Shown one piece after another: positions 38,352 to 54,368 of a stretch of DNA of 64,000 bases (position 1 is its first letter; each line of letters starts with the position of its first letter). The position numbers and the translations under genes were made by a program. Source of the stretch: an uncultured Gemmatimonadales bacterium (GTDB lineage: Bacteria; Gemmatimonadota; Gemmatimonadetes; Gemmatimonadales; GWC2-71-9); NCBI GenBank assembly GCA_963795085.1, contig CAWCFX010000002.1:384001-448000 (forward strand), read 5' to 3'. The notes beneath the pieces were generated by a model. The model was not told the DNA's origin, searched no databases, and worked only from the letters and a program-made list of their open reading frames with translations.

Positions 38352-40805
38352 CTAGAAAAAGTTGCCTAGTTTGAAGTGCAGCTTCCACCCGGGGTCGGGG
38401 CGGCCGTTCACGTCCACCCGGTTGAATCCGTAGCCCATGTCCACACCGATGGGACCCAGCGGCGTGATGAGGGCGGCGCCAAACCCGGCCCCCCGGAACA
38501 GCCGGCTGGGATCGAACTGGCGCGCGTCGCGGTACACGTTGCCGGCGTCCATGAAGGTGCTCAGGTACACCGACTGGCTGACCCGGGCGCCGAACTCCAC
38601 CGTAAACGCGGCAAACGACTTGCCGAAGGCCCCGGGCTGGGCCCGCCCGGTCGAGGCTGAAGGATCAAACCCGTTGGGGGTGATGGAGAATTCGTCGTAT
38701 CCCCGGAGCGGGGTGCCGAACTGGGTGCCGCCCATGGAATACAGCTCCGTAAAGAACGGCCCCGCGTCGCCGAACACAAAGCCCGACTTGGCGGTGAATC
38801 CGAGGACCAGCTGCACCCCGGATCCGATCTGGGGATTGCCGCCCAGGGAACCCAGCGGCGCGTACCAGCGGCCTTCCAGTTCCAGCTTCTGGTAGCGGCC
38901 GGTGCCGCCGAGGATGCCGCCGTTCATCTCGACCTGGACATTGGTCATGCTGCCCGCGGTGGCGAAGGGCAGCCCGATCCGGGTGTCGCGCAACACCGTG
39001 GCGCCCAGCGTCGAGCGGCTGCAGTTATTGCAGTTAAAGCGCTCCCTCAAATCTTCAGAGCCCTCGGTGAACTTGATCCGCTGGAAGCCGTAGGAGGTGA
39101 AGACCCGGGTGAACCGGGAGCCCAGGAACGGGAAGCCCAGCTGGATACTGCCGCCTTCCTGCCGCCGCCGGCCCAGGTCGCCGACGACGAACCGCTGCCG
39201 CGAGTTGAACAGCGTAATGGTGCCGGAGATCCGGGAGTCCCGGATCGCCGGGTCGGTGTAGCTCAGGGTGAAATCATTGACGTTGCGGCCGAACTGCCAC
39301 TGGAAACGGACCCGTTTGCCCCGGCCGAAGAGGTTGGGCTCCTCGATGCCGAAGAATCCGCCCACGCCATACCCCTGCCCCAGGGACGCCCCGAAGTTGA
39401 AGTTGCCGGTCCGCCGCTCTTCGACCCGGAAGGTGACGTCCACGTCCACCCCGTTGCCGGCGCGGTCGATGTCAGGGAAGGCCATCGGCTGCTGGAAAAA
39501 CCCGAGATTGCCGATGTTCTGGTAGGAGCGGAGCAGCCGGTCCTGGCTGAACACGTCGCCGGGGAGCAGCATGATCGCTTCCCGGATCACCCGCTCGTGG
39601 GTCACGTCGTTGCCGACGATGTTCACCTTGTTGATGGTCGCAACCGAGCCCTCGCGGATGGTCCAGCCGAGGTCGATGTAGGGCGCGCCGCCGGGACCGG
39701 TCCGGCGGGTCTCGGTCGGGGTAATGTCGACGTAGATATAGCCGTTGTTGCGGTAGATGTTCCCGACTTTTTCCAGGGCCGCGTCCCAATCACTCCGGCT
39801 GAAGGGGGCCGGCGCCAGGCTGCTGTCCACCGGCTGGCCCGGTGCCCGGGGAATCCCGAACGGGTAGAACACCATCAGCTCGTCGCGGCTGTAATAGCGG
39901 TTGCCGTTGATCTCGAAGGTGCCGACATAGTAGGCCGGCCCTTCCTCGACACCCAGGCGGAGGATCGCCTTACCGGTCGTGGAATCCATGACCAGGGTGT
40001 CGGACCGGACCTGGAAATCGACGTACCCCCGTTCGCCGTAAAAGGCCGGCAGGCGTTCCCGGATGTCCTGGTCCAGCTTGTCGTCCTCGAAGCGGCCCTT
40101 CTGCCACCAGAAGAACCCCTCGGGCCGGGTGGCCATGTGCTTAACCACTTCCTTGTCGCTGAAGCGGGCATTGCCGTCGATGATTACTTCGCTGATGGCG
40201 ACCCGGCTGCCCTCGTTCACGTCGAAGACCAGGCGCACCGCGTTGTTGGGCTGGGGCAGCTCGTTGACGGTGGTGCGGGCGGTGTAGTAGCCCTGGGCCC
40301 GGTACATCGAATCGATGCCGGCCCGGGCCCGGGCCACTCCGGCCCGGTCGATGGGCTTGCCTTCGATGACCTTGATGCGGCCCCGCACGTCGGAGAGGGA
40401 GATCAGCTCGGGGCCCCGAAGCACCCACTTCTCCAGGATGGGCCGCTCCTTCACCGTCACGATGAGGACGAAGGATTCGTCGCCGGCGCGGAAATCGGTG
40501 CGGACGTCATCAAACTGGCCGGTCCGGAAGAGGGCAGCGATGGCCCGCTGGACATCGCGGAACCCGACCACCTGTCCCACCGCCAGCCCGGAGGTCCCCA
40601 TGATCTGGGCGGTGGTGACCCGTGCGTTGCCCTCGACGATGAGGCTGTCGAGGATGGGGGGCTCGGGCGGCGTTTCCTGCTGGGCCTGGAGGGCCATGCC
40701 GAAAGCCGCCCCCAGGAACAGGAGGCAGCTCAGGGCGCGCAGGAACCGGAGGCCGGGGCGTAACGCCGGGGCCACCGCCCGGCGGGCGGCGGCGGCTCGC
40801 ATCAC
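38352..40805 (-). CDS. bamA: Outer membrane protein assembly factor BamA
   Basis: POTRA repeats, LRGY, TPLGP, C-terminal Phe. Confidence 0.95.
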   Translation of the reverse strand: MMRAAAARRAVAPALRPGLRFLRALSCLLFLGAAFGMALQAQQETPPEPPILDSLIVEGNARVTTAQIMGTSGLAVGQVVGFRDVQRAIAALFRTGQFDDVRTDFRAGDESFVLIVTVKERPILEKWVLRGPELISLSDVRGRIKVIEGKPIDRAGVARARAGIDSMYRAQGYYTARTTVNELPQPNNAVRLVFDVNEGSRVAISEVIIDGNARFSDKEVVKHMATRPEGFFWWQKGRFEDDKLDQDIRERLPAFYGERGYVDFQVRSDTLVMDSTTGKAILRLGVEEGPAYYVGTFEINGNRYYSRDELMVFYPFGIPRAPGQPVDSSLAPAPFSRSDWDAALEKVGNIYRNNGYIYVDITPTETRRTGPGGAPYIDLGWTIREGSVATINKVNIVGNDVTHERVIREAIMLLPGDVFSQDRLLRSYQNIGNLGFFQQPMAFPDIDRAGNGVDVDVTFRVEERRTGNFNFGASLGQGYGVGGFFGIEEPNLFGRGKRVRFQWQFGRNVNDFTLSYTDPAIRDSRISGTITLFNSRQRFVVGDLGRRRQEGGSIQLGFPFLGSRFTRVFTSYGFQRIKFTEGSEDLRERFNCNNCSRSTLGATVLRDTRIGLPFATAGSMTNVQVEMNGGILGGTGRYQKLELEGRWYAPLGSLGGNPQIGSGVQLVLGFTAKSGFVFGDAGPFFTELYSMGGTQFGTPLRGYDEFSITPNGFDPSASTGRAQPGAFGKSFAAFTVEFGARVSQSVYLSTFMDAGNVYRDARQFDPSRLFRGAGFGAALITPLGPIGVDMGYGFNRVDVNGRPDPGWKLHFKLGNFF

Positions 40806-43267
40806 GTCTTGGACTCGGTCAGGGCCCGAAAGGCGAGTTTCTCGCCGTCGGGAGCCACGTCGACTTCGATTTCGTCCCCCCGGCCGAAGTCACCGGTGAG
40901 GATTCGCTCGCTGAGCGGGTCCTCGATGTACTTCTGAATGGCCCGCTTGAGCGGCCGGGCGCCGTAGTTCTGGTCGTACCCGTGGTTCACCAGGAACTCG
41001 ATGGCCGCCGGCGTCAGGCGGACTTCATCGCCCAGCCGCCGCTGCACCTCCTTGAGCAGGATCGTCACGATCTGGGCGATGTGCTCCTTGGACAGCGGAT
41101 GAAAGACGATGATGTCGTCCAGCCGGTTGAGGAACTCCGGGTTGAACACTTTCTGGATCTCGTCCTTGACCTTTTCCGCCATCCGGTCGAAGGAGGTCTG
41201 GCTATCGGCCCCGTGGAAGCCCAGGCTCTTGTTCTGGGTGATCTCGCGGGCGCCCACGTTGGATGTCATGATGACCACCGTATTCTTGAAATCAATGACC
41301 CGGCCGTAGTTGTCGGTCAGGTGGCCCTCATCCAGCACCTGGAGCAGGATGTTGAACACGTCGGGGTGGGCCTTTTCGATCTCGTCGAGCAGTACGACAG
41401 AATAGGGCTTCCGGCGGATGGCCTTGGTGAGCGTGCCGGAATCTTCGTACCCGACGTAGCCGGGGGGCGCGCCGATCAGCCGGGAGACCGAGAACTTCTC
41501 CATGTACTCCGACATGTCCACCCGGATGAGGGCAGAGGCGTCGGCGAAAAGGAACTTGGCCAGCGACCGGGCCAGTTCGGTCTTGCCCACCCCGGTGGGG
41601 CCCGAGAAAATGAACGACCCGATCGGGTGGTTGGGGTCCTTGAGCCCGGCCCGGGAGCGCCGGATGGCCCGGGAGATCGCCTTGATCGCCTCGTCCTGGC
41701 CCACCACCGACTCGTGCAGTTCGTCTTCCATCCGCAGCAGCCGGGCGGCCTCGGCCTCCTGCAGCCGGGTGACCGGGATGCCGGTCCACCGGGAGACCAC
41801 GAAGGCCACCGCCTCTTCGTCGATCACCGGACGGCGGATCTGCCGTTCCCGCTCCCATTCCTCGTTCTTGAGGCGGATCTGGTTCTGCAGGTCGCGTTCC
41901 CGGTCCCGCAGGCTGGCGGCCTTTTCGAAGTTCTGGTCGCGGACCGCGTCCTCTTTCTCGACGTTGACCTTTTCGAGGTCGGCCTTGAGCGTGGACACTT
42001 CGGCCGGCGGCACCTGGGAGGCAAGCCGCGCCCGGGCGCCCGATTCGTCGATGACGTCAATGGCCTTGTCCGGCAGGAACCGGTCGGTGATATAGCGCTC
42101 CGACAGCTCGGCCGACGCCTTGAGGGTTTCGTCGGGATAAGAGACCCGGTGGTGGTCCTCGTACTTCTTGCGCAACCCCTTGAGGATCTCGATGGTCTCC
42201 TCGATGGACGGCGGCTCCACCATGACCGTCTGGAAGCGGCGCTCCAGGGCGCCGTCTTTCTCGATGTATTTCCGGTACTCGTTCAGGGTCGAAGCGCCGA
42301 CGCACTGCAGCTCGCCCCGGGCCAGGGCGGGTTTGAGCATGTTGGAGGCGTCGATGGCCCCTTCGGCGGCGCCGGCGCCGACCAGGGTATGCAATTCGTC
42401 GATGAACAGGATGATGTTCTTGTTCTGGGCGATCTCGTTCATCACGGCCTTGAGCCGCTCTTCGAACTGGCCCCGGTACTTGGTACCGGCGATCACCGCG
42501 GCCATGTCCAGGGAAAGCACCCGGTGGTCGCGCAGCACATCGGGACAGGTGCCGCTGGCGATGAGGAGCGCCAGGCCCTCCACGATCGCGGTCTTGCCGA
42601 CGCCCGGCTCTCCGATCAGGACCGGATTGTTCTTCTTCCGGCGGGCCAGGATCTCCATGACCCGTTCGATCTCCTTGGCGCGGCCAATGGTCGGGTCCAG
42701 TTGCCCCTCGGCACCCAGCTGGGTAAGGTCGCGGCAGAAGTGATCCAGCGCGGGGGTCTTGGATTTCTTCTCCGACTTGGGCGGTTGGACGGGCTGGCTG
42801 CCGCCGGTGGGGGTCTGCGGCATGTCGCTGCCGAGCAGCCGCAGCGTTTCCGCCCGGGACTGTTCCAGGCTCACGCCCGCGTCGGTCAGGACCTGCGCGG
42901 CGATCCCCTTCTCTTCGCGGAGCAGGCCGAGCAGCAGGTGCTCGGTGCCGACGTAGGAGTGGTTGAGCTCCCGGGCCTCGGTCATCGCCAGTTCCAGCAC
43001 TTTCTTGGCGCGAGAGGTATAAGGCAGATCGGGACCCACCGCCGCGCTGGCTTTGCCCTTCTTGACCGTCTCCTCGATTTTCTGCTGGATCTCCTCGAGG
43101 TCAACGTTGAGATTGGTGAGGACCGCCGCGGCGACGCCCTCGCCCTCGCGGATCAGCCCCAGGAGGATATGCTCGGTTCCCACGTACTCGTGGTGCAGAC
43201 GGGCGGCTTCCTCTCGCGCCATCTGGAGCACTTTGCGAACCCGGTCGGTAAAGTTGTATCCGTTCAT
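40802..43267 (-). CDS. clpC: ATP-dependent Clp protease ATPase ClpC
   Basis: Double Clp-N with intact TDR/GTEH and TSR/GTEH, two AAA+ domains, UVR M-domain, LGF ClpP-docking loop. Confidence 0.95.
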
Positions 43268-43301
43268 CGAGGCTTCCTGCCCTGGAGAAGTGTGCGCCGG
43301 G

Positions 43302-44384
43302 CTATCCGCGCCGGGCCGCGTCTTCTTCCAAAAGTTTGCGTACGTAACGGGAACGCTGCACTGATAGCGAGGGATCGTCGACCTGGAGGCTGTGCGCGGC
43401 CGCCAGGTGGGCCGGCTGGCAGTACACCAGCAGCTTGTTCAAGGTATACAACCCCACCCCGCCGATCAGTTTCAAGCCCACGCCCAGCCGTACACCGCTG
43501 AGCAGGTTCATCATCTCTTCGAACGAGAGGGCCCGGGCGTAGCGAAGCAATCCGTAGGCCCGCCAGACCTTGTCCTCGACCGCGCCCGGCGCGTCGCGCA
43601 GCAGCACCTGCCGGGCCTGCTCTTCGTATTCCATGACCTGGCGGACGATCTTGCCGAGGTGATCCAGCAGGTCCTGCTCTGACTTGCCCAGCGTGGTCTG
43701 GTTGGACAACTGGAAGAAATTGCCCACCACTTCGCTGCCCTCGCCGTACAGCCCGCGAAACGTCAAGCCGACCTGGCCAAGCCCCTGCAAAACCTTGGAA
43801 ATTTCTTTGGTCAGGACCAGGCCGGGCAGGTGGATCAACACGGAGGCGCGAAGCCCGGTGCCGACGTTCGTGGGACAGGATGTAAGGTAACCAAATTCAG
43901 GATGAAATGCGAAGGGAAGTCGTTGTCCCAGTTCACTGTCCAGACGGTCCACAGCGGCATAGGTTTCGGCCAGCGCAAAGCCTGAGCGCATGCCCTGGAG
44001 CCGGAGGTGATCCTCCTCATTCAGCATGATCCCCAGCTGGTCCTGCACCAGCAGGGCGCCTCCCGGCCGCACCCGGCCGGCGGGATCCAGGGCCGCCAGT
44101 TCGCGGCTGATCAGATGGCGTTCATGAAGCAGCTGGCGGTCCAGGGGGTCCAGCCGGTCCATCCGGTAGCACACCGCCTGTCCCATCAGGGTGCCACTCC
44201 GCCCGGCCGCGTCCACCTCGCGGAGGATCGCCTCCCGGTCCTCCGGGGCATTCCGGGAGCCGAAGACCCGGTCGCCGAGGTTCCGGGCGAGCCGCACCCG
44301 GGTGGACAGGACGAGGTGGCCGGCGGGCCCGCTGGCGTCGAGCCAGCCCAGTCCTCCGTCGGCCAGCAGGCTCAGGTCGATCAC
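43302..44384 (-). CDS. mcsB: Protein arginine kinase McsB
   Basis: STRVRLARN, NEEDH, CPTNVGTGLRAS, RGLYGEG, SNQ.TLG; GTG at 44384. Confidence 0.93.
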   Translation of the reverse strand: MIDLSLLADGGLGWLDASGPAGHLVLSTRVRLARNLGDRVFGSRNAPEDREAILREVDAAGRSGTLMGQAVCYRMDRLDPLDRQLLHERHLISRELAALDPAGRVRPGGALLVQDQLGIMLNEEDHLRLQGMRSGFALAETYAAVDRLDSELGQRLPFAFHPEFGYLTSCPTNVGTGLRASVLIHLPGLVLTKEISKVLQGLGQVGLTFRGLYGEGSEVVGNFFQLSNQTTLGKSEQDLLDHLGKIVRQVMEYEEQARQVLLRDAPGAVEDKVWRAYGLLRYARALSFEEMMNLLSGVRLGVGLKLIGGVGLYTLNKLLVYCQPAHLAAAHSLQVDDPSLSVQRSRYVRKLLEEDAARRG

Positions 44385-44890
44385 TCTGCCACCTTGAGTT
44401 GATCGCGCAGCTGGGCCGCCCGCTCGAAATCTTCCGATTCGATGGCCCGCTTGAGCTGTTCCCGCAACTCGAGGCCGCCGGGGGCGCCAGCGGAAGGCTC
44501 CGCCGCGGCCCCCGCGAGGTAGCGTTCTCCCACATGGCGCGTGGCCCCGTGGAGGCGGCGCAGGAGGTCGCGGAGCGGCTCCCCCAGCGCACGATAGCAG
44601 TCGGGGCACCCCAGCCGCCCTGATTCCCGGAAGTCCGAAAGCGTCGCGCCGCAACTCCCGCAGGAGAAAGCCAATTCGCCCACCCCCGCAGGGGTTGCGT
44701 CCTTGAGCCCCTGCCCCATGGCGGCGATGTAGCTCGCCAGCGGCGACTTGCCGAGGGACGCGGCGTTCTCCAGGCCCCGCTCCGCGGCGCACTGCTCGCA
44801 CAGGTGGACCTTGGTCACCTGCCCCTCGGCCACCTGGGTCAGCTCCATCACGGCATCGCGTTCCTGGCACTGGCTGCAGATCATGCGCAC
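44381..44890 (-). CDS. mcsA: McsA activator (4 CxxC plus UVR domain)
   Basis: CSQC, CEQC, CGSC, CPDC; EDFERAAQLRD. Confidence 0.92.
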   Translation of the reverse strand: MRMICSQCQERDAVMELTQVAEGQVTKVHLCEQCAAERGLENAASLGKSPLASYIAAMGQGLKDATPAGVGELAFSCGSCGATLSDFRESGRLGCPDCYRALGEPLRDLLRRLHGATRHVGERYLAGAAAEPSAGAPGGLELREQLKRAIESEDFERAAQLRDQLKVAE

Positions 44891-46876: not shown

Positions 46877-48396
46877 GCCGGGTCCCCGTCCATTTCCGGG
46901 CGCATGGCCGGGAACAGGATGACGTCCCGGATGGACGGCTGGTCCGCGAGCAGCATGATCAGCCGGTCAATGCCCAGGCCGAGCCCTCCGGCCGGCGGCA
47001 TACCATACTCGAGGGCGCGCACGTAGTCCGCGTCGTACGGCTGGGCCTCGGCGTCACCCCTGGTGTGGAGCTCCGCCTGGGCTTCGAAGCGCTGCCGCTG
47101 GTCGGCCGGATCGTTCAGTTCGCTAAAGGCATTGGCGATTTCACGGCCCAGGATGAACAGTTCGAACCGCTCGGTCAGGAACGGGTCGGACCGGTGTTCC
47201 TTGGCCAGCGGCGAAAGCGGCTTGGGATAATCAATGACGAAGGTGGGCTGAATGAGGGTGGGCTCCAGGAACACCCGGAAGACCTCGTCCATCAGGCGGG
47301 CCCCGCTCAGCGCCGCGACCGCGTCGGCCGGCTCCCGGGCCGCCACCAGAGCCTCCCGCATGGCCGGCTCGGAGGCGACCCGGAGATCCAGCCCGGAGGT
47401 GTCCTGCACCCCGGCCAGGAAAGAAACCCGCCGCCACGGCGGAGTGAAGTCGAGCCGGTGGCCTCCCCGGTCGAGAAACAGGGTGCCGCAACAGTGCTGG
47501 ACCACGCCGCTCACCATCTGCTCGGCGGTGTCCATGACGTCCCGGTAGTCGGCGTAGGCCTGGTAGAACTCCAGCATGGTGAACTCGGGGAGGTGGGTCC
47601 GGTCCATCCCTTCGTTCCGGAAATCGTGGCCGATCTCGTACACCCGCTCGAATCCGCCCACCAGCAGCCGTTTGAGATACAGCTCGTCGGCAATCCGCAG
47701 GTATAGCGGCATGTCGAGCGCGTGGTGGACGGTGGTGAAGGGCCGGGCCGCCGCGCCGCCGTAGAGGGGCTGCAGGATCGGGGTCTCGACTTCCAGGAAG
47801 CCGCGATCGTCCAGGAAGCGGCGCAGCCAGGCGATGGCCCGGGCCCGCAGGGTGAACACGGCGCGCACATCGGGGTGAACCGCCAGGTCGGCGTAGCGCT
47901 GCCGGTATCGGAACTCCATGTCGGCCACCCCGCCGTAGGTCCGGGTCGAGCCGTCCTCCAGCACTTCCACTTTGGGCCGGGGCAGCGGCTTGACCGACTT
48001 CGACAGCAGGGTCACCTCGGCCGCCCGAATGGTGACCTCCCCGGTCTTCGTCTTCATGAGCCGGCCCCGCACGCCGATATGGTCGTCGAGGTCGAGCAGC
48101 CGGACCAGCTCCCAGGCCGGTCCCAGGTCATCGGCGCGGAGATACACCTGGATCCGGCCGCTCGCATCCTCTACGTGCCCGAAGGTGGTCTTACCCTTGG
48201 AACGCCAGGACTGGACCCGGCCGGCGACCGCCACCTCGGGCCCCAGGTCGCCCTGCTGGTCCTGGTACAGGGCGAGCGCCTCCCGGGCCATGTGGCTGGG
48301 CCGGTAGCCATAGGCATAGGGCCGGATCCCCAGCGCCGTGATGGCGGCCAGTTTCTCGCGGCGGTGCCGCTCCGGCTGGCTCAACTCGTCGCTCAC
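46873..48396 (-). CDS. lysS: Lysine--tRNA ligase (class II)
   Basis: RYRQRY, YGGAAARPF, FRNEG, GLGIDR. Confidence 0.97.
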   Translation of the reverse strand: MSDELSQPERHRREKLAAITALGIRPYAYGYRPSHMAREALALYQDQQGDLGPEVAVAGRVQSWRSKGKTTFGHVEDASGRIQVYLRADDLGPAWELVRLLDLDDHIGVRGRLMKTKTGEVTIRAAEVTLLSKSVKPLPRPKVEVLEDGSTRTYGGVADMEFRYRQRYADLAVHPDVRAVFTLRARAIAWLRRFLDDRGFLEVETPILQPLYGGAAARPFTTVHHALDMPLYLRIADELYLKRLLVGGFERVYEIGHDFRNEGMDRTHLPEFTMLEFYQAYADYRDVMDTAEQMVSGVVQHCCGTLFLDRGGHRLDFTPPWRRVSFLAGVQDTSGLDLRVASEPAMREALVAAREPADAVAALSGARLMDEVFRVFLEPTLIQPTFVIDYPKPLSPLAKEHRSDPFLTERFELFILGREIANAFSELNDPADQRQRFEAQAELHTRGDAEAQPYDADYVRALEYGMPPAGGLGLGIDRLIMLLADQPSIRDVILFPAMRPEMDGDPA

Positions 48397-49497
48397 GCCG
48401 GCTTTCCCCCGTATTGCTTGAGAAACGCTTCGATGAACCCGTCGAGGTCTCCGTCCATCACCCGGTGGACATCGCCCACCTTGAGCTCGGTCCGGTGGTC
48501 GTTGACCATGGTGTAGGGCTGAAAGACGTAGGACCGGATCTGGTTGCCCCAGGAGTTGTCGGTCTTGGTGGCTTCGACCAGGGCCCGGGCGGCTTCCTGC
48601 TCCTCCAGTTTCTTCTGGTACAGCGCGGCCCGGAGCATTTTCAGCGCGGTCGCCTTGTTCTTGCCCTGGCTCCGCTCCTGCTGGCAGCTCACCACGGTGT
48701 TCGTGGGGATATGGGTGAGGCGCACCGCCGAGGAGGTCTTGTTGACGTGCTGGCCGCCGGCCCCGGAGGCCCGGAAGACGTCCATCCGGATGTCCTCGTC
48801 CCGCAGTTCGATTTCGATGGTGTCGTCGATATCGGGATACAGGAACACCGATGCGAAAGAGGTGTGGCGGCGCGCCTGGGAATCAAAAGGAGAGATCCGC
48901 ACCAGCCGGTGGACGCCCTTCTCCGCCTTGAGGTACCCATAGGCGTACTGGCCCTTGATCTCGATGGTGGCCGACTTGATCCCGGCCTCTTCGCCGGGTA
49001 GCAGATCGAGAATGGTCACCTCGAAATCGTGCCGCTCGGCCCAGCGCACGTACATCCGAAGCAGCATGTCGGCCCAGTCCTGCGACTCGGTGCCACCGGC
49101 GCCGGGGTGAATTGTCAGGATCGCATCGCGCCCGTCATCGGGGCCACTCAGCATGGCCTGCAGCTCGAAGGCCGCGGTGCGCTCCTCCAGCGCAGCGGCC
49201 TCCGCCTCGAGGTCCGCCGTCATCCCCGCATCCGGCTCTGCTTCGAGCATCTCGGCCAGGCCGGCCGCTCCCTCGAGCCGGGACACCAGCTCCCGGTACG
49301 GTGCCACTATCGCCTTGAGCTGCTTGGCCTCCTGCACGACACCACGGGCCCGCTCCGGATTACTCCAGAAGTTGGGATCCGCCTGCCGGGCGTCCAGTTT
49401 CTCCAGTTGAGCTTCCTTGTCAGCCACGTCAAAGAAAGTCACGCAACTCGGAGAGGCGCCGATTGAGTTCGTCGAAACGTTCGGTCAAAGCAGACAT
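48393..49497 (-). CDS. prfB: Peptide chain release factor 2 with programmed +1 frameshift
   Basis: ATG 49497 gives MSALTERFDELNRRLSELRDFL then CTT TGA C (49434-49428); the +1 frame carries SPF and GGQ. Confidence 0.95.
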
Positions 49498-49611: not shown

Positions 49612-50367
49612 TCACCAGAGTTTCTCGCCTCCCGCCAGGATATCGTTCAGGGCGTCATTGAAATAGGTGGTGGACTCGGCGATCTCGGCGCCGACCTGGT
49701 CGCGGTATTCCTCCCAGCTCTTCTTGATCTCTTCCCCGAACGCTTCCTTGAGGGTCCCGGAGCGAAGCCCCTCCTGCCGCCGGTCGGGGTAATAGACCAC
49801 GAGGTCAGAGATCAGGGCCCGCGCCAGGCGGCGTGCCTTCTGCTGCGGATCCTGCGACATGAACGGGTTGACCAGCCGGCGCCCAGCGGGCGGTGTGGCG
49901 GCCGCCGGCGGGGCCGGCCGTGGCGGCGGGGCCGGAGGAATGGCGGCTGCCGGACGCGCCGCTTCGGACCCGCTGGACCGGGTCGGTGCGGCGACCGGCG
50001 GAATCGCGACCGAAGGCCGAGGCTGCCCGGTCGTCACTCCCCGGGGCGCGGTGGTTCGAGGCAGGGGCGCCGGCTCAGGGGCGGGCCGGGACTCCGGCTC
50101 CTCAAACACCGGCGCAGGCAGGGGCGGCTCGGGCGCGGGCGGTGGGGGTGGCGGGGGCGGCAGCGGCGCGGCCTCCACGACCTCCCTGGGGGCCGGGGTG
50201 GGGACGGCCTCCTGGAACGGTTCGCTGGCCCGGGGCCGGGCATCTGCCGGGGCCGGCACCTGGAATACCGCGGCGCAACTACGGCAGCGCGCCCGTACGC
50301 CGCGCTCGGGGACCTTGGCGGGGTCCACCCGGTACACCGTGCTGCAACTGGGACAGATGACGTTCAT
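49612..50367 (-). CDS. MJ0042-type zinc-ribbon + Pro-rich linker + RomX-like helical domain protein
   Basis: CPSC..YRV..RARCRSC; C-terminal ARRLARALISD..Y...EEIKKS..EY...F.DALNDI..W; ATG at 50367. Confidence 0.75.
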   Translation of the reverse strand: MNVICPSCSTVYRVDPAKVPERGVRARCRSCAAVFQVPAPADARPRASEPFQEAVPTPAPREVVEAAPLPPPPPPPPAPEPPLPAPVFEEPESRPAPEPAPLPRTTAPRGVTTGQPRPSVAIPPVAAPTRSSGSEAARPAAAIPPAPPPRPAPPAAATPPAGRRLVNPFMSQDPQQKARRLARALISDLVVYYPDRRQEGLRSGTLKEAFGEEIKKSWEEYRDQVGAEIAESTTYFNDALNDILAGGEKLW

Positions 50368-50374
50368 GCTTCCC

Positions 50375-51352
50375 CTAGCGCTCAGGTCGTGGGGCGCCCG
50401 GTTCCGGCGGGTCACCGGAGGTCCGCCGGTCCACAACGAAGACAGACCCAGGCAGGGTCTTGGCGTAGCTCTTCATCTCGGTGGCCAACTCGCTCACCTG
50501 GGCCGGATGAGCGAACCGCCGGTTCCGGTTGGTAACGATGCCGATGGACAGCGTCATCAGGGGGACCCGGTGCAGCTGTCCCCGGCGGTCCTTTCCGAAG
50601 AAATACCCGGCCCGCCGGTCCTGGTCGTTGTACTGCAGCGGCATCAACGTGTCGAAGACGTTGAGGATTTCGGTGCAGACGACGCTGATATCGCCGGAGG
50701 GAATGATAAAGATGAAATCATCGCCCCCGATGTGGCCCACGAACCCGCGACTGCCGGACATGCCCTTGACCACGTCATGCAGCAGCCGGGAGACCAGATA
50801 GATGACCCGGTCGCCGTCGTAATAGCTGTACCGGTCGTTGAATTCCTTGAAGTGGTCCAGGTCGGCATAGCAGACGGCGAACTCGGTGCCCGCTTCCAGT
50901 TGCCGGCGGATCTCGCGCTCGATTTCGGTGGTGCCGGGAAGCCGGGTAGAGGGATGCACCGACACATCGCGCTGGGTGCGGACCAGCATGGCCTCGAGCC
51001 GGGCTCGTTGCTCGGCGGGCGAGAAGAGCCCGGTGATGACCTCGTCGGTCCCCGCCGCGAACCAGCTCTGCACCCGTTCGGCATCATGCGATTCGGAGAG
51101 CATGGCGACCGGGACGATGGCGGTAAAGGCGTCGCCCTTGAGCCGGGCCACCAGTTCGGTACCATCCTTGCCCGGCCGGTTGGCGTCCACGAACAGGATG
51201 CAGGGGAACCCGCGAAGAACGATGGACTCGACCTCCTCGGCCGATTCCAGGACCATCAGGGGGAACGCCTTGGCCTCCACCCACTGGCGCACCAGGGGGT
51301 GGACCGGGCGCGCGTCCGGCGAGTAATAGAGAATCGTCGGCCGAGTTCGCAC
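50375..51352 (-). CDS. Degenerate receiver + GGDEF (GGDDF) diguanylate cyclase-like protein
   Basis: DLDHFKEFND..GD, GHIGGDDF, TLSIG; N-terminal REC-like fold. Confidence 0.85.
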   Translation of the reverse strand: MRTRPTILYYSPDARPVHPLVRQWVEAKAFPLMVLESAEEVESIVLRGFPCILFVDANRPGKDGTELVARLKGDAFTAIVPVAMLSESHDAERVQSWFAAGTDEVITGLFSPAEQRARLEAMLVRTQRDVSVHPSTRLPGTTEIEREIRRQLEAGTEFAVCYADLDHFKEFNDRYSYYDGDRVIYLVSRLLHDVVKGMSGSRGFVGHIGGDDFIFIIPSGDISVVCTEILNVFDTLMPLQYNDQDRRAGYFFGKDRRGQLHRVPLMTLSIGIVTNRNRRFAHPAQVSELATEMKSYAKTLPGSVFVVDRRTSGDPPEPGAPRPER

Positions 51353-51432
51353 CCTCTACCCTCGTAAGAAGTGATAGGAAGCTAACTTACGGGCCTTGGA
51401 CAGAGAAGTCAAATGGGCCTCGGCTGAGAGAA

Positions 51433-51470
51433 ATTTCAGATTGACGATTTCAGATTTCGGATTGGTCATT
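51433..51470. repeat. Degenerate 7-bp tandem repeat (ATTTCAG-like) x5
   Basis: ATTTCAG ATTGACG ATTTCAG ATTTCGG ATTGGTC ATT. Confidence 0.65.
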
Positions 51471-51511
51471 CTCAGACCGCGGCATCCGGCCTCTGCAGTG
51501 CCCCTCGCGAT

Positions 51512-53272
51512 CTACAGGAAAAACGCCGCCACCCCGACCATCGCGTAGAGGGCCAGCAATTGGACGCCCTCGAACCAGTGAGACTCGCCGTCCAGGGTGA
51601 TGATGGCGGTCGCGATGGTGGACACCCCAATGGCTGCCACCTCGAAGGGGGTGAAGACCAGGTTCATGTTCTGGCCCAGGATCAGCCCGGCCAGCACCAG
51701 CAGTGGCGCCACCAGCAGGGCTACCTGGGTGCTGGATCCCAGCGCGATATTGAGCGCCAGGTCCATCTTGCCCTTGCGCGCCACCACGATCGCGGTGGCA
51801 TGCTCCGCGGCGTTGCCGATAATCGGGATTATGATCAGGCCCAGGAACATCTCGCTGAGGCCCAGCGTCGCGGTAACCGCCTCCACCGAGTGCACCAGGA
51901 TTTCGGACTCAAGGGCGACCCCGGCGGTGGCAACGCCCAGGACCAGGATGGCCTTGCCGATGCTCCAGGGCGTGCCCGCCTGCTCATGCTTTTCGCCCAT
52001 GAACAGGTCCTGGTGGGTCTTGAGGGCAAACAGCAGGGAAAAGAGATAGGTCACACCGAGAACGATGGCCACCCCTTCCGACATCCAGAGCTCCTGCTGG
52101 GCGGCTCTCGGGTGCAGCGCGTGAAAAATCGCGGGAAACAGTAACCCGGCCACCGCGAGGGCGAGCATCGCGGAACTCATGCCGGCCGCCGTCCGGTTGA
52201 ACCGGAGGATCGGGCGACCGCGCGATCCGGCAATCAGGGAGAGGCCCAGGATCAGCAGGAGGTTTCCGAGGATGCTGCCGGTGATCGAGGCCTTGACCAG
52301 TTCCACCAGCCCGGCCCGGAGCGCTACGATCGCGATGATCAGTTCGGCCGCGTTGCCGAAGGTGGCATTGAGAAACCCCCCCATCGCGGGGCCGGTTCGG
52401 TGGGCCAGGTGTTCGGTGGCCTCGCCCATGTAACCGGCCAGGGGAATGACGCCGAGGCAGGCGATCCCGAAGATCAGCACCGGCGAGGCGTGCATGGAGT
52501 TGAGCACGATGCTGGCCGGAACCGCCAGCAACAGGATGTTGCGCCAGGTGAAAATCGGATTGCGATGGGCGAGGATCGCGGGCCGCGGCGCGGACCGGGG
52601 CGACGGGAGAGCGTCGTCCCGCTCCGCGGAAGGCGTAGTCTCCTCTGTGCGAGGCCGGTCCCGGGCCGCACGCTCCCGAACCGGACGCTCCCGCTCGCTG
52701 CGTTCCTTGCGCTCCCGTCCCCGGCCTCTGGCTTCGGGTTCGCCCGCTGGCTGTCGCGCGGCGCCTGGTTCCCGAGGTTCCCTCGACTCCTTCGGTTCCC
52801 TGGGCTCCCGGGGCGCATCTGCAGGCGCGGGTTTCTTCTCGGCCGGAGGCGCCAGCAGAGAGCGGGCCCGGTCGGCACTCCCGCCGGCGGCCAGGGCCTG
52901 CTGGACCACGCCGCGCCGCTCCCGGAGCAACGCCAGCCACAGGTGTTCCGGCTCTACGGCCGGCTGGCCCTGCTGCCGAGCCTCGGTGGCGGCCAGGTCA
53001 AGGATCTTGCGGGCCCCCGACCGTACCCCCATGTCCGCCGCGGAAACCGTGCGGTCTCCCGGTTTGACGCTGGCATCGAGGTGAGCCCGGATCGCGGCCG
53101 AGTCCATCTCGGCCTTTGCCACCAGGGTATCGCCGTGGCCCGAAGGATCGGCCAGCAGCGCAAGGAGGAGATGCTCGGAGCCGATGAAATCGTGGCCCAG
53201 GCGCGCGGCCTCCGCCTTGGCCCCGTCCACCAGGCTTGCGGCCGCAGGGCTGAGGGTGTGGTTCGTCGTCAT
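51512..53272 (-). CDS. Ca2+/H+ exchanger (CAX/ChaA) with N-terminal Clp repeat domain
   Basis: Two Clp-N repeats (GSEHLLLALL, EPEHLWLALL), charged linker, alpha-1 FGNAAE and alpha-2 GNAAEH motifs. Confidence 0.88.
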   Translation of the reverse strand: MTTNHTLSPAAASLVDGAKAEAARLGHDFIGSEHLLLALLADPSGHGDTLVAKAEMDSAAIRAHLDASVKPGDRTVSAADMGVRSGARKILDLAATEARQQGQPAVEPEHLWLALLRERRGVVQQALAAGGSADRARSLLAPPAEKKPAPADAPREPREPKESREPREPGAARQPAGEPEARGRGRERKERSERERPVRERAARDRPRTEETTPSAERDDALPSPRSAPRPAILAHRNPIFTWRNILLLAVPASIVLNSMHASPVLIFGIACLGVIPLAGYMGEATEHLAHRTGPAMGGFLNATFGNAAELIIAIVALRAGLVELVKASITGSILGNLLLILGLSLIAGSRGRPILRFNRTAAGMSSAMLALAVAGLLFPAIFHALHPRAAQQELWMSEGVAIVLGVTYLFSLLFALKTHQDLFMGEKHEQAGTPWSIGKAILVLGVATAGVALESEILVHSVEAVTATLGLSEMFLGLIIIPIIGNAAEHATAIVVARKGKMDLALNIALGSSTQVALLVAPLLVLAGLILGQNMNLVFTPFEVAAIGVSTIATAIITLDGESHWFEGVQLLALYAMVGVAAFFL

Positions 53273-53325
53273 GGGATCGGGTGAACCGGGGCCCGCTCCG
53301 GAGCGGTCATCAGGCGGGGGCGCGG

Positions 53326-53493
53326 TCAGAGGGGTTTGGCTTCGTCAATCAGCATGATTGGGATCCCGTCTTCCACCGGGTACACCAGCCGGCACGCCAG
53401 GCATACCAGCGACTCGGGCTCTTGGCGATACTCGAGTTCGCCCCGGCACTTGGGGCAGACCAGGATCTCCAGCAGGTCGGGCGGCAGCGTCAT
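53326..53493 (-). CDS. Trm112/UPF0434 (YcaR-like) small protein
   Basis: 55 aa, [12 protein letters not shown]...[19 protein letters not shown]; below the ORF-track size cutoff. Confidence 0.9.
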
Positions 53494-54368
53494 GGGTCGC
53501 GGTGTTCAGGGAATCCGAACCGGGTCAGGGCCGCGGCATTCTTGCGCCAGTTCGGCAGCACTTTGACCCAGCAGTCGAGATACACGGGATCGCCGATCAG
53601 CGTCTCCAGCCGGCGCCGGGCATGGCTTCCGAGCGCCTTGATGGTCCGTCCGCCGGCGCCGATCAGGATCGCTTTCTGGGTCTCCCGCTCGACGTACAGG
53701 GTCACCCGAATGTACACGGGTCGGTCGTCCTCGCGGTACTCCTCCACCTGCGCATTGAAGGCATAGGGCACCTCCTCTTCCAGCAACTCGAAGGCCGCCT
53801 CCCGGAGGTACTCCTCCACGAAGAAACGCATGGGCTGGGTCCCGATGTCGCCGGAATCGTACTCGAAAGGCCGTTCCGGCAGCAGCGGCTCGATCCGGGC
53901 CAGCAGTTGGGACAATCCCGCCCCCTGCTCCGAGGTGACCAGGCTACCGCCCTCCATGAGCCGCGCCCGCTCCTCGGCGGACACGACGTCGCCCTTGGTG
54001 TAGACCGCCACCACCGGTGCCCTGGGCGGCCGAGCCAGCCGGGCAACCTCGTGGAAGGGCGGCGCCGGGGCTTCCGGGGCGGGATGGAGGTGGAGGATGA
54101 CGTCGGCCCGGTCCAGCTGGTCCAGCGCCGCCGCCCGCATCCGCTCCTGCATGAGGTAGGACGGCTCCAGGAGCCCGGGAAGATCGTGGAAAATGTACTG
54201 GGTCGAGCCCTCGGTCCGCAGTCCCACCACGGGAAGCCGGGTCGCCTGGGGCTTGGGACTCACGATGCCGAGGTGTTCCCCGATCAGCAGGTTGAGAAGG
54301 GTGGACTTGCCCACATTGGGCAGCCCGGTCAGCGCCACGTGGCCGGAACGGGTCGCGGGTTCGGTCAT
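53490..54368 (-). CDS. era: GTPase Era
   Basis: [16 protein letters not shown] domain EEVPY..ILIG.GG; ATG at 54368. Confidence 0.93.

What the first reader, a model, noticed from the sequence alone, without database searches (positions are those of the whole stretch)
51512..53272. Clp N-terminal domain fused to a Ca2+/H+ antiporter
Seen: one 586-aa ORF with a double Clp-N repeat (about 140 aa), a disordered R/E/P-rich linker (about 100 aa) and a complete CAX with both GNAAE motifs. There is no obvious internal start before TM1. Compared with this genome's ClpC, the pArg-pocket residues are mostly changed (TDR to SPA, GTEH to GSEH, TSR to RSG, GTEH to EPEH). Known: Clp-N domains bind adaptors and substrates, and stand-alone ones (mycobacterial ClpC2) act as decoys or regulators. 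Inference: a transporter gated by, or a membrane anchor for, proteostasis components. The Arg-rich linker is a plausible McsB target, and mcsAB-clpC lies about 7 kb away. I know of no description of this architecture.
Basis: partly seen in the sequence, partly recalled or inferred. Interest (0 to 1): 0.75.

Follow-up and report, generated by a model that had tools for sequence, protein, structure and literature searches.

The report
Calcium antiporter carrying a Clp N-domain
One family of Gemmatimonadota bacteria has a calcium/proton exchanger with a chaperone-type protein-binding domain tethered to its inner end; the fusion is real and kept by selection, but it is often lost again and its role is untested.

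Summary
ORF 51512..53272 (-) encodes 586 aa: a double Clp_N repeat (aa ~11-140), an R/P/E/A-rich linker (aa 141-242) and a complete CAX Ca2+/H+ antiporter (aa 243-586) with both GNAAE motifs.

It is not an artefact. 118 of the best 120 database hits carry both Pfam domains. 40 of 97 sampled genomes of one Gemmatimonadota family have the fused gene at the same trm112-CAX locus.

The fusion arose once and was lost several times (fused rows as one exclusive clade rejected, p-AU 0.004). Within genera the N-domain is under purifying selection like the CAX part (median dN/dS 0.15 each). Between genera it is only 33% identical, against 60% for CAX and 95-100% for the same genomes' ClpC N-domain.

Canonical phospho-arginine pockets are not conserved (0 and 17 of 117). 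McsB is in 199 of 201 genomes of the phylum. The 8-kb distance to mcsAB-clpC also holds for unfused CAX genes. The proposed McsB/ClpC link therefore has no specific support.

Best reading: a working CAX with a dispensable cytoplasmic regulatory or docking module, like the plant CAX1 N-terminal region in logic. No paper describing it was found.

The parts
51512..53272 (-). Whole fusion gene, 586 aa plus stop
   Evidence: ORF; domains; 118 of the 120 best hits share both domains.
52853..53242 (-). ClpC-type N-domain (double Clp_N repeat), aa 11-140
   Evidence: Pfam PF02861, 2 stretches. Aligns to solved ClpC N-domains over aa 11-138, E 1e-12 to 1e-15. 34% identical to this genome's ClpC N-domain. 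A22, G31, E33 and G121 are invariant and H34 is in 116 of 117 family members.
52547..52852 (-). Low-complexity linker rich in R, P, E and A, aa 141-242; presumed disordered
   Evidence: Composition R21, P19, A16, E16 of 102. No in-frame start codon. In the family its length is 25-170 aa (median 98) and its net charge +2 to +14. Median dN/dS 0.33.
51515..52546 (-). CAX Ca2+/H+ antiporter core, aa 243-586; 11 membrane helices by my assignment
   Evidence: TIGR00378, 342 bits. End-to-end alignment to VCX1 (4k1c, E 4.3e-73), YfkE (4kjr, 1.5e-69) and plant CAX1 (9vsa, 4e-62). It is the only PF01699 protein found in the genome.
52343..52357 (-). First GNAAE motif (alpha-repeat 1), aa 306-310
   Evidence: Invariant in 61 of 61 aligned members.
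51803..51817 (-). Second GNAAE motif (alpha-repeat 2), aa 486-490
   Evidence: Invariant in 61 of 61 aligned members.
53326..53493 (-). trm112-like gene directly upstream; marks the conserved locus (context, not part of the protein)
   Evidence: Pfam PF03966. Directly upstream in 39 of 40 fused loci, 10 of 16 unfused loci of the same family and 4 of 7 of family f2.
40802..44890 (-). mcsA-mcsB-clpC, 6.6-8.2 kb downstream on the same strand (context only)
   Evidence: The spacing is also conserved where the CAX is unfused.

Best explanation
The gene encodes a working CAX-type Ca2+/H+ antiporter. Its cytoplasmic N-terminus carries a ClpC-type N-domain on a flexible, positively charged tether of variable length.

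Shown:
- The fusion is genuine.
- It arose once in one Gemmatimonadota family, at the trm112-CAX locus.
- It is kept under purifying selection and has been lost several times.
- The transporter core has all family motifs and is the only CaCA transporter found in this genome.

Inferred:
- The N-domain is an accessory module and not part of the transport machinery.
- It keeps the Clp_N fold and the helix-5 and loop-1 patch (G31-x-E33-H34, S85, A87, R/K88, R/K89, E/D92) but has lost the canonical phospho-arginine pockets.
- It most likely acts as an N-terminal regulatory or docking domain. It would bind a lineage-specific protein or peptide ligand, or the transporter's own cytoplasmic face, and so tune Ca2+ efflux or the transporter's stability.
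- In logic this matches the N-terminal regulatory region of plant CAX1, but it is built from a different, folded domain.
For: Real and conserved:
- 118 of the 120 best hits have both domains.
- Two ESM Atlas clusters, of 76 and 101 members, carry PF01699 plus PF02861.
- Of 72 CAX loci fetched from 201 genomes, 37 are fused in one frame. Two more are fused with a frameshift inside the CAX part. One has a run of N inside the linker. All 40 lie in family f1, which has 97 genomes.

Single origin, repeated loss:
- The 37 fusion N-domains fall on one side of a branch (SH-aLRT 82).
- All 38 fused CAX rows lie in one clade of 49 rows (SH-aLRT 99), together with 11 unfused rows. The fewest changes needed are 7, and well-supported branches force at least 3.
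- Fused rows as one exclusive clade is rejected, with a log-likelihood difference of 116 and p-AU 0.004.
- Nested unfused CAX are 79-86% identical to their fused neighbours in genus g4.

Selection:
- In 12 within-genus pairs, dN/dS of the N-domain is 0.055-0.51 (median 0.15), of CAX 0.04-0.26 (median 0.15) and of the linker 0.20-0.63 (median 0.33).

Working transporter:
- TIGR00378 scores above its cut-off and both GNAAE motifs are invariant.
- The core aligns over its full length to YfkE, VCX1 and CAX1.
- It is the only PF01699 protein found in the genome.

Cytoplasmic side:
- The N-terminus is hydrophilic and there is no hydrophobic stretch before aa 239.
- K+R counts are 9 in the loops I place inside and 1 in those outside. 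The N-terminal 244 aa hold 41 K+R.

Accessory role:
- Unfused orthologues sit at the same locus.

Precedent:
- Plant CAX1 is autoinhibited by a cytosolic N-terminal region. Protein partners and phosphorylation relieve this (PMC13591097, abstract and passages).
Against: - No direct evidence for any ligand or for regulation exists.
- Only one CAX column (T559) is conserved in at least 90% of 36 fused sequences and changed in at least 4 of 11 nested unfused ones. No docking patch on the transporter shows up.
- Mutual information between the domains gives only a weak lead. Pairs 115-355 (z 8.2) and 112-351 (z 6.4) point to the cytoplasmic loop between helices 3 and 4. The other top pairs fall in membrane or outer positions, as shared ancestry alone would give.
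- The N-domain is only 33% identical between genera (521 pairs of 35 loci), against 60% for CAX. A fixed interface on a conserved transporter face would predict more conservation.
- Repeated loss shows the module is dispensable in some settings.
- In genus g29 it is degenerate, with 35-41 HMM bits and dN/dS 0.5.
- Many dS values are near 1, so the dN/dS figures are rough.
- Structure and complex prediction could not be run.
Confidence: 0.5

Rival explanations
1. The N-domain is a membrane-tethered ClpC decoy or anchor that reads phospho-arginine, or binds McsA/McsB/ClpC. The Arg-rich linker is phosphorylated by McsB. Ca2+ efflux would thus be coupled to the McsB-ClpC protein quality-control system.
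For: - The N-domain is closest to ClpC N-domains.
- The genome has a canonical-looking mcsA-mcsB-clpC set. Its ClpC keeps FTDR, GTEH, YTSR and GTEH.
- MecA and ClpS were not found, so McsAB is the only known ClpC N-domain partner seen (genome 93% complete).
- E33 and H34 of pocket B are invariant or nearly so. The equivalents of S. aureus K85 and K86 are R or K in 117 of 117 members.
- Positions 32 and 84, which would face each other in pocket B, covary: A-T 37, S-R 26, T-R 25.
- Mycobacterial ClpC2 shows that a ClpC-like N-domain outside an unfoldase can bind phospho-arginine through a single retained pocket (PMC13345244, passages).
Against: - Pocket A (S/T at 8, S/T at 108, E at 109) is complete in 0 of 117 members. 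Pocket B (S/T at 32, S/T at 84, E33) is complete in 17 of 117. The window's own protein has R84 and P108.
- In ClpC2, changing one pocket Thr to Ala abolished binding.
- 27 of 117 members lack the N-terminal start of helix 1.
- McsB is present in 199 of 201 genomes whether or not the fusion is there.
- The spacing to mcsB is the same for unfused CAX.
- Some members have a linker of only 25-45 aa.
- The fused N-domain evolves far faster than the near-invariant ClpC N-domain that serves the same partners.
Confidence: 0.15
2. A built-in handle for turnover. The exposed N-domain and the disordered tether make the transporter a substrate, or an adaptor-recruited client, of a cytoplasmic protease such as ClpCP, FtsH or Lon. 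CAX abundance, not its activity, would then be what is regulated.
For: - A long disordered segment next to a folded domain is what AAA+ proteases engage (established knowledge, not tested here).
- The tether length is free to vary between 25 and 170 aa.
- The module is dispensable.
Against: - Nothing here tests turnover.
- A degradation handle does not need a folded, selected Clp_N domain with dN/dS of 0.15.
Confidence: 0.1
3. A nearly neutral passenger. A Clp_N cassette was captured once at the 5' end of the CAX gene, does nothing important and is decaying.
For: - At least 3, and most parsimoniously about 6, independent losses.
- 33% identity between genera.
- A degenerate copy in genus g29.
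- No patch on the CAX part that changes together with loss.
Against: - Within-genus dN/dS has a median of 0.15, equal to the CAX core and half that of the linker.
- None of the 40 fused loci has a stop or frameshift inside the N-domain.
- Fold-defining residues are invariant across 117 members.
- The module is kept in 12 of the 38 sampled genera of the family.
Confidence: 0.1
4. Artefact: a lost stop codon, a mis-assembly or two genes read as one.
For: None found. One relative (G186) has its N-domain and CAX parts in different frames.
Against: - The G186 case is a run of N inside the linker, that is an assembly gap.
- 37 independent genomes and 118 database proteins have one continuous frame.
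- No stand-alone close relative of the N-domain under 322 aa was found. The best of 27 hits scores 71 bits at 36% identity.
- No Clp_N frame lies within about 1.4 kb upstream of any of the 32 unfused CAX.
- GC3 stays at 0.84 in the N-domain and 0.72 in the linker.
Confidence: 0.01

Closest known systems
[quoted passage not shown]
   Same: Same transporter family: 9vsa aligns over aa 245-584 of the window's protein, E 4e-62. Both carry an extra cytosolic N-terminal extension that many homologues lack. In CAX1 the extension autoinhibits transport, and protein partners and phosphorylation act on it (PMC13591097, abstract and passages).
   Different: The plant NRR is a short segment of about 36 residues that is not a Clp_N domain. 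Here the extension is 242 aa: a folded double Clp_N repeat plus a tether. Autoinhibition is not shown here.
Bacillus subtilis YfkE and yeast VCX1 (solved CAX structures 4kjr, 4k1c)
   Same: The CAX core aligns end to end at E 1.5e-69 and 4.3e-73, with both GNAxE alpha-repeats.
   Different: YfkE starts 8 residues before the aligned core and VCX1 45 residues before it. Neither has a Clp_N domain.
ClpC N-terminal domain (B. subtilis and S. aureus ClpC, M. tuberculosis ClpC1)
   Same: Best sequence match of the N-domain, E 1e-12 to 1e-15 over aa 11-138. The double repeat is the same. G-x-E-H is kept in repeat 1. The equivalents of F80, K85, K86 and E89 of the helix 1/helix 5 groove are kept as classes of residue.
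   Different: No AAA+ modules follow. The phospho-arginine pockets are not conserved. The N-terminal Phe of the cyclomarin site is missing. It is 33% identical between genera, against 95-100% for the true ClpC N-domain.
Mycobacterial ClpC2 (ClpC1 N-domain homologue outside an unfoldase)
   Same: A ClpC-type N-domain used outside a Clp ATPase. Only one of the two pockets is retained (PMC13345244, passages). PDB ClpC2 chains match at E 1e-8 to 1e-6.
   Different: ClpC2 is a soluble transcriptional repressor with a DNA-binding N-terminal part. It keeps a working phospho-arginine pocket and the cyclomarin site. The protein here is a membrane transporter whose better-kept pocket is the other one, and even that is incomplete in 100 of 117 members.
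Clp_N repeats in non-Clp proteins (multi-repeat Clp_N proteins; vWA-ClpN fusions in conflict systems)
   Same: Clp_N is a promiscuous module. The N-domain hits 14784 cluster representatives at E <= 1e-3. I scanned the first 50 of the 150 listed hits; all 50 are proteins with 4-10 Clp_N repeats and no AAA domain. Four of them are fused to an alpha/beta hydrolase, GerE, TIR_2 or 23S_rRNA_IVP domain. ClpN repeats fused to vWA are noted in PMC7159879 (one passage).
   Different: None of the 150 best representatives has three or more membrane-like stretches. A transporter as the fusion partner was seen only in the Gemmatimonadota family.

Membership tests
CAX Ca2+/H+ exchangers (TIGR00378; CaCA superfamily, PF01699 x2) | Full-length match above the curated cut-off | tested here: met
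   TIGR00378 at 342 bits against a cut-off of 211, profile positions 1-349 of 349. TIGR00846 at 329 against 317.
CAX Ca2+/H+ exchangers (TIGR00378; CaCA superfamily, PF01699 x2) | Two alpha-repeats, each with the GNxxE signature | tested here: met
   GNAAE at aa 306 and 486. Both are invariant in 61 of 61 aligned members. Two PF01699 stretches.
CAX Ca2+/H+ exchangers (TIGR00378; CaCA superfamily, PF01699 x2) | Eleven-helix core colinear with solved CAX structures | tested here: met
   Alignment without large gaps to 4kjr (chain 9-350) and 4k1c (chain 46-402). Hydrophobic stretches run from aa 239 to 562. The helix count is my own assignment.
CAX Ca2+/H+ exchangers (TIGR00378; CaCA superfamily, PF01699 x2) | Ca2+/H+ antiport activity | not testable with these tools
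   Needs vesicle or complementation assays.
Clp_N double repeat (PF02861, 'Clp R domain') | Two tandem Clp_N repeats forming one N-domain of about 140 aa | tested here: met
   Two stretches, E 6.8e-17. Also matched in the genome search at 39.3 and 36 bits against a cut-off of 20.7. Aligned to solved N-domains over aa 11-138.
Hsp100/Clp unfoldase (ClpA, ClpB, ClpC) | AAA+ ATPase module(s) after the N-domain | tested here: not met
   No AAA family appears in Pfam or NCBIfam for this ORF. The ClpB, ClpA, ClpG and ClpK models match only aa 4-133, at 12-28 bits against cut-offs of 993-1900.
ClpC-type phospho-arginine reader | Pocket A: Thr at the start of helix 1 (S. aureus T7) plus Thr-Glu of the second G-T-E-H (T105, E106) | tested here: not met
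   The window has S8, P108, E109. The full set is present in 0 of 117 members. The residue roles come from passages of PMC12583610 and PMC13345244. The primary paper was not held.
ClpC-type phospho-arginine reader | Pocket B: Thr at the start of helix 5 (T81) plus Thr-Glu of the first G-T-E-H (T31, E32) | tested here: not met
   The window has R84, S32, E33. The full set is present in 17 of 117 members. Binding itself is not testable here.
ClpC2-like stand-alone regulators | Soluble protein with a DNA-binding or dimerising N-terminal part, a ClpC-like C-terminal domain and one intact pocket | tested here: not met
   Here the Clp_N domain is N-terminal and is followed by a membrane transporter. 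Pocket status as above.

The most novel reading that the evidence does not exclude
The tethered N-domain is a sensor of cytoplasmic protein damage. Through its retained helix-5 and loop-1 patch it would bind unfolded or phosphorylated polypeptides, or McsB itself. Binding would release or impose inhibition on the transporter, so that Ca2+ efflux is directly coupled to the state of the proteome. That would be a link between protein quality control and ion homeostasis not described in bacteria.
Probability: 0.1. Interest if true: 0.8.

Novelty: new variant of a known kind. Interest (0 to 1): 0.45.

Why it matters
Bacterial CAX transporters are usually treated as unregulated housekeeping exchangers. 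N-terminal control is known mainly from plants. Here a bacterial lineage has independently put a folded protein-binding domain on the same end of the same transporter.

Nature has also supplied controls: sister strains whose CAX is 79-86% identical but lacks the domain. This makes a clean test possible, comparing full-length, truncated and naturally unfused forms, of whether and how a Clp-type N-domain can regulate a membrane transporter.

It also adds a transporter to the list of non-Clp proteins that reuse the Clp N-domain. And it shows what is kept when that domain is freed from ClpC's many partners: the fold, G-x-E-H of repeat 1 and the basic start of helix 5. The phospho-arginine pockets are not kept.

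Tried and rejected
Each retry came after the stated wait. No model, fold search or mapping of surfaces was possible.
- HMMER search of the N-domain against 1.84 billion representatives. The 150 listed hits are dominated by multi-repeat Clp_N proteins whose summed scores outrank single domains. It did not resolve the donor of the N-domain.
- N-domain tree. The fusion N-domains are not nested inside Gemmatimonadota ClpC N-domains. Their sister relation to ClpC plus multi-repeat proteins has only SH-aLRT 80-82 on 131 columns. The origin stays open, and duplication from the nearby clpC is neither shown nor excluded.
- ESM Atlas lead. The nearest non-CAX clusters are stand-alone Clp_N proteins of 142-152 aa. 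I did not follow this up.
- Search for CAX columns that relax when the N-domain is lost gave one column only.
- Mutual information between the domains gave a weak lead only.
- CAX paralogues at 43-47% identity with long open frames upstream (G118, G198, G040, G151, G066). They have no Clp_N, and the long frames are not coding.
- Sequencing runs: no RNA holder was listed, and two DNA runs held 7-8% of the sampled words. I did not lay reads.
- Promoter and terminator scan of 51200..53700 found nothing on the gene's strand.
- Tandem repeats in the linker DNA: only a 12-bp unit x2.2 at 52577-52602.
- Earlier notes of this scan: nothing by place or by sequence.
- Literature searches that found no description of the architecture: 0 papers; 3 papers, none on it; no listed paper holds 'Gemmatimonadota'; 0 papers.
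- The primary paper on the ClpC phospho-arginine pockets (PMC6640040) was not held.
Full report
**1. Observation**

The ORF 51512..53272 on the minus strand encodes 586 aa from an ATG.

Pfam finds two Clp_N stretches (PF02861, E 6.8e-17) and two Na_Ca_ex stretches (PF01699, E 2.8e-39). NCBIfam places aa 247-584 in the CAX equivalog TIGR00378 at 342 bits, against a cut-off of 211. The Clp ATPase models touch only aa 4-133, at 12-28 bits. GNAAE stands at aa 306 and 486.

Residues 141-242 are 71% R, P, A and E. No in-frame ATG, GTG or TTG lies between codons 123 and 247, so no start could give a complete CAX-only product.

mcsA, mcsB and clpC lie 6.6-8.2 kb away on the same strand.

**2. Is the fusion real?**

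Of the 120 best hits among 5.8 billion proteins, 118 carry both Pfam domains. This count includes the window's own protein. Lengths are 467-665 aa. The sources that name them call them calcium/proton exchangers of Gemmatimonadota or Gemmatimonadales. The two exceptions are proteins of 327 and 353 aa from contigs under 1.5 kb.

The ESM Atlas holds two clusters (76 and 101 members) with both families, commonest in Gemmatimonadota.

I searched 201 genomes of the phylum (a stricter first look was used, so counts are a floor). I fetched 72 CAX loci. I classified them with HMMs of the N-domain and of the CAX core, built from 117 of the fused proteins. Three short or truncated rows (P0019, P0027, P0038) were left out of that alignment.

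Result of the classification:
- 37 loci are fused in one frame.
- 2 are fused but have a frameshift inside the CAX part (G138, G045).
- 1 (G186) has the two parts in different frames. This is a run of N inside the linker, that is an assembly gap.
- 32 are unfused.

All 40 fused loci lie in one family (coded f1; 97 genomes, 12 of its 38 sampled genera). The unfused loci are 16 in f1, 7 in f2 (one of them, G157, is flagged unpublished), 6 in f6, 2 in f9 and 1 in f8.

Four further f1 genomes gave only a 43-45% paralogue with open frames of 418 aa or less (G007, G031, G034, G046; not fetched). The other 37 f1 genomes gave only ClpC-level matches.

No Clp_N frame lies within about 1.4 kb upstream of any unfused CAX. 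No short protein (<322 aa) closely related to the N-domain exists in the database; the best of 27 hits scores 71 bits at 36% identity. CAX paralogues carry no Clp_N. Two-gene and artefact readings are therefore excluded.

**3. History**

trm112 is directly upstream in 39 of 40 fused loci, in 10 of 16 unfused f1 loci and in 4 of 7 f2 loci. The fusion therefore formed in place.

In a CAX-core tree (70 rows, quick LG+G4) all 38 fused rows sit in one f1 clade of 49 rows (SH-aLRT 99), together with 11 unfused rows. A sister clade of 21 rows is entirely unfused. The fewest changes needed are 7, and well-supported branches force at least 3.

Holding the fused rows as one exclusive clade costs 116 log-likelihood units (p-AU 0.004; I named the group after seeing the tree). 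The 37 N-domains fall on one side of a branch (SH-aLRT 82), and their genus groups mirror the CAX tree.

Hence one gain and several losses. Two of the losses lie inside genus g4, where unfused cores are 79-86% identical to fused neighbours. Their upstream sequence looks like a clean excision of the N-domain plus linker.

**4. Selection and rates**

In 12 within-genus pairs, dN/dS is:
- N-domain: 0.055-0.51, median 0.15.
- CAX core: 0.04-0.26, median 0.15.
- Linker: 0.20-0.63, median 0.33.

Many dS values are near 1, so these figures are rough.

Between genera (521 pairs of 35 loci) the N-domain averages 33% identity and the core 60%. In three genomes compared directly, the true ClpC N-domain is 95.5-97% identical where the fused one is 33-41% (a fourth, G045, had only ClpC data, giving the 95.5-100% range).

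So the module is maintained, but its surface is far freer than that of ClpC's N-domain. In genus g29 it is degenerate, at 35-41 HMM bits and dN/dS 0.5.

**5. What is kept in the N-domain**

Across 117 members, A22, G31, E33 and G121 are invariant. A18, L25, H34, L37, A87, A94, A98 and L127 are nearly so. S85 is in 103 members. Positions 88 and 89 are R or K in all 117, and position 92 is E, D or N.

By the alignments, these positions match S. aureus E32, A84, K85 and K86. They also match M. tuberculosis F80, K85 and E89 of the groove between helices 1 and 5 (PMC11791199, figure legend).

For the phospho-arginine pockets I relied on passages of two papers, because the primary paper was not held:
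- PMC12583610 names T7, E32 and E106.
- PMC13345244 describes a pocket made by the start of helix 1 and the loops after helices 2 and 5. It names T100 and T197, and reports that T99A abolishes binding.

Pocket A is complete in 0 of 117 members, and 27 members lack the start of helix 1 altogether. Pocket B is complete in 17 of 117. Positions 32 and 84 covary: A-T 37, S-R 26, T-R 25.

The family therefore does not conserve a canonical phospho-arginine reader. It does keep a patch around pocket B and helix 5. Whether R84 fills that pocket is my speculation.

**6. The McsAB/ClpC link**

McsB (PF00217) is in 199 of 201 genomes, one copy each. The ClpC N-domain matched in most genomes.

The spacing of 8-10 kb between CAX and mcsB/clpC holds for unfused CAX in f1 (G185, G068) and in f2 (G036, G047, G052, G157). 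So it predates the fusion.

The linker ranges from 25 to 170 aa, with net charge +2 to +14. MecA and ClpS were not found in this 93%-complete genome. Nothing ties the fusion specifically to McsAB/ClpC, and nothing excludes it.

**7. The transporter**

The core aligns end to end with VCX1, YfkE and plant CAX1. It is the only PF01699 protein found in the genome.

With my 11-helix assignment, loops on the N-terminal side hold 9 K+R and loops on the other side hold 1. The N-terminal 244 aa hold 41 K+R. The N-domain is therefore cytoplasmic (inference).

**8. Mechanism**

Shown: a complete CAX, plus a selected but dispensable ClpC-like N-domain on a variable tether.

Inferred, about even odds overall: an N-terminal regulatory or docking module, comparable in logic to the plant CAX1 regulatory region (PMC13591097, abstract and passages).

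Tests for a docking site on the core gave one column and a weak covariation lead to loop 348-360. The rivals and their odds are listed in the Rival explanations section.

**9. Novelty**

The architecture is present in databases under automatic names. Clp_N is a promiscuous domain. Four literature searches found no description of a Clp_N-CAX protein. The library lacks most subscription journals, and I did not consult supplements.

I file it as a new variant of known kinds: a CAX with an N-terminal regulatory extension, and a Clp_N domain outside an unfoldase.

**10. Limits**

No structure or complex prediction could be run. No RNA data were available. Genome counts are floors. The trees are quick searches. 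Related genomes are not independent samples.

Noticed in passing
window 49431-49496 (-): prfB (RF2) carries the classic programmed +1 frameshift site CTT TGA C. A short ORF0 starts at ATG 49496 (MSALTERFDELNRRLSELRDFL, then the stop). The listed ORF 48393..49442 is the downstream frame.
   Followed up: partly
window 40802-44890 (-); 201 genomes of the phylum: mcsA-mcsB-clpC looks universal in this Gram-negative phylum. McsB is in 199 of 201 genomes, against only B. subtilis among 14 control genomes. The ClpC N-domain is 95.5-100% identical across genera and keeps FTDR, GTEH, YTSR and GTEH. No paper listed holds 'Gemmatimonadota' together with ClpC or McsB.
   Followed up: partly
proteins P0121-P0170: A large class of proteins is made of 4-10 Clp_N repeats with no AAA domain, up to 1762 aa. 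A few are fused to TIR_2 (P0147), GerE (P0146), an alpha/beta hydrolase (P0128) or 23S_rRNA_IVP (P0157).
   Followed up: partly
L065 (G126) and L066 (G147): A second fused lineage in genus g31 has a very fast-evolving CAX core: 178-193 HMM bits against more than 430 elsewhere, and a branch length of 2.1. Its N-domains are sister to the N-domain of the ordinary fused gene of G190.
   Followed up: partly
L037 (G162), linker region: The linker holds a near-perfect run of PREPKE/PREPRE units. Linkers in this family seem to grow and shrink by short codon repeats. The window's own linker shows only a 12-bp unit x2.2 at 52577-52602.
   Followed up: no
window 43302-44890 (-): The mcsB frame stays open for 522 aa and overlaps the mcsA ORF (44381..44890), which lies in another frame. 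The real mcsB start is probably near 44402.
   Followed up: no
window 49612-50436 (-): This gene encodes an MJ0042-type zinc-ribbon protein with a long Pro/Ala-rich low-complexity stretch. GC reaches 0.82 at 49900-50199.
   Followed up: no
window 50375-51352 (-): A response regulator with a partial GGDEF match (profile positions 17-91 of 161) lies directly downstream of the fusion gene. It is found downstream in all 12 fused loci for which downstream flank was fetched. Unfused loci were not checked.
   Followed up: partly
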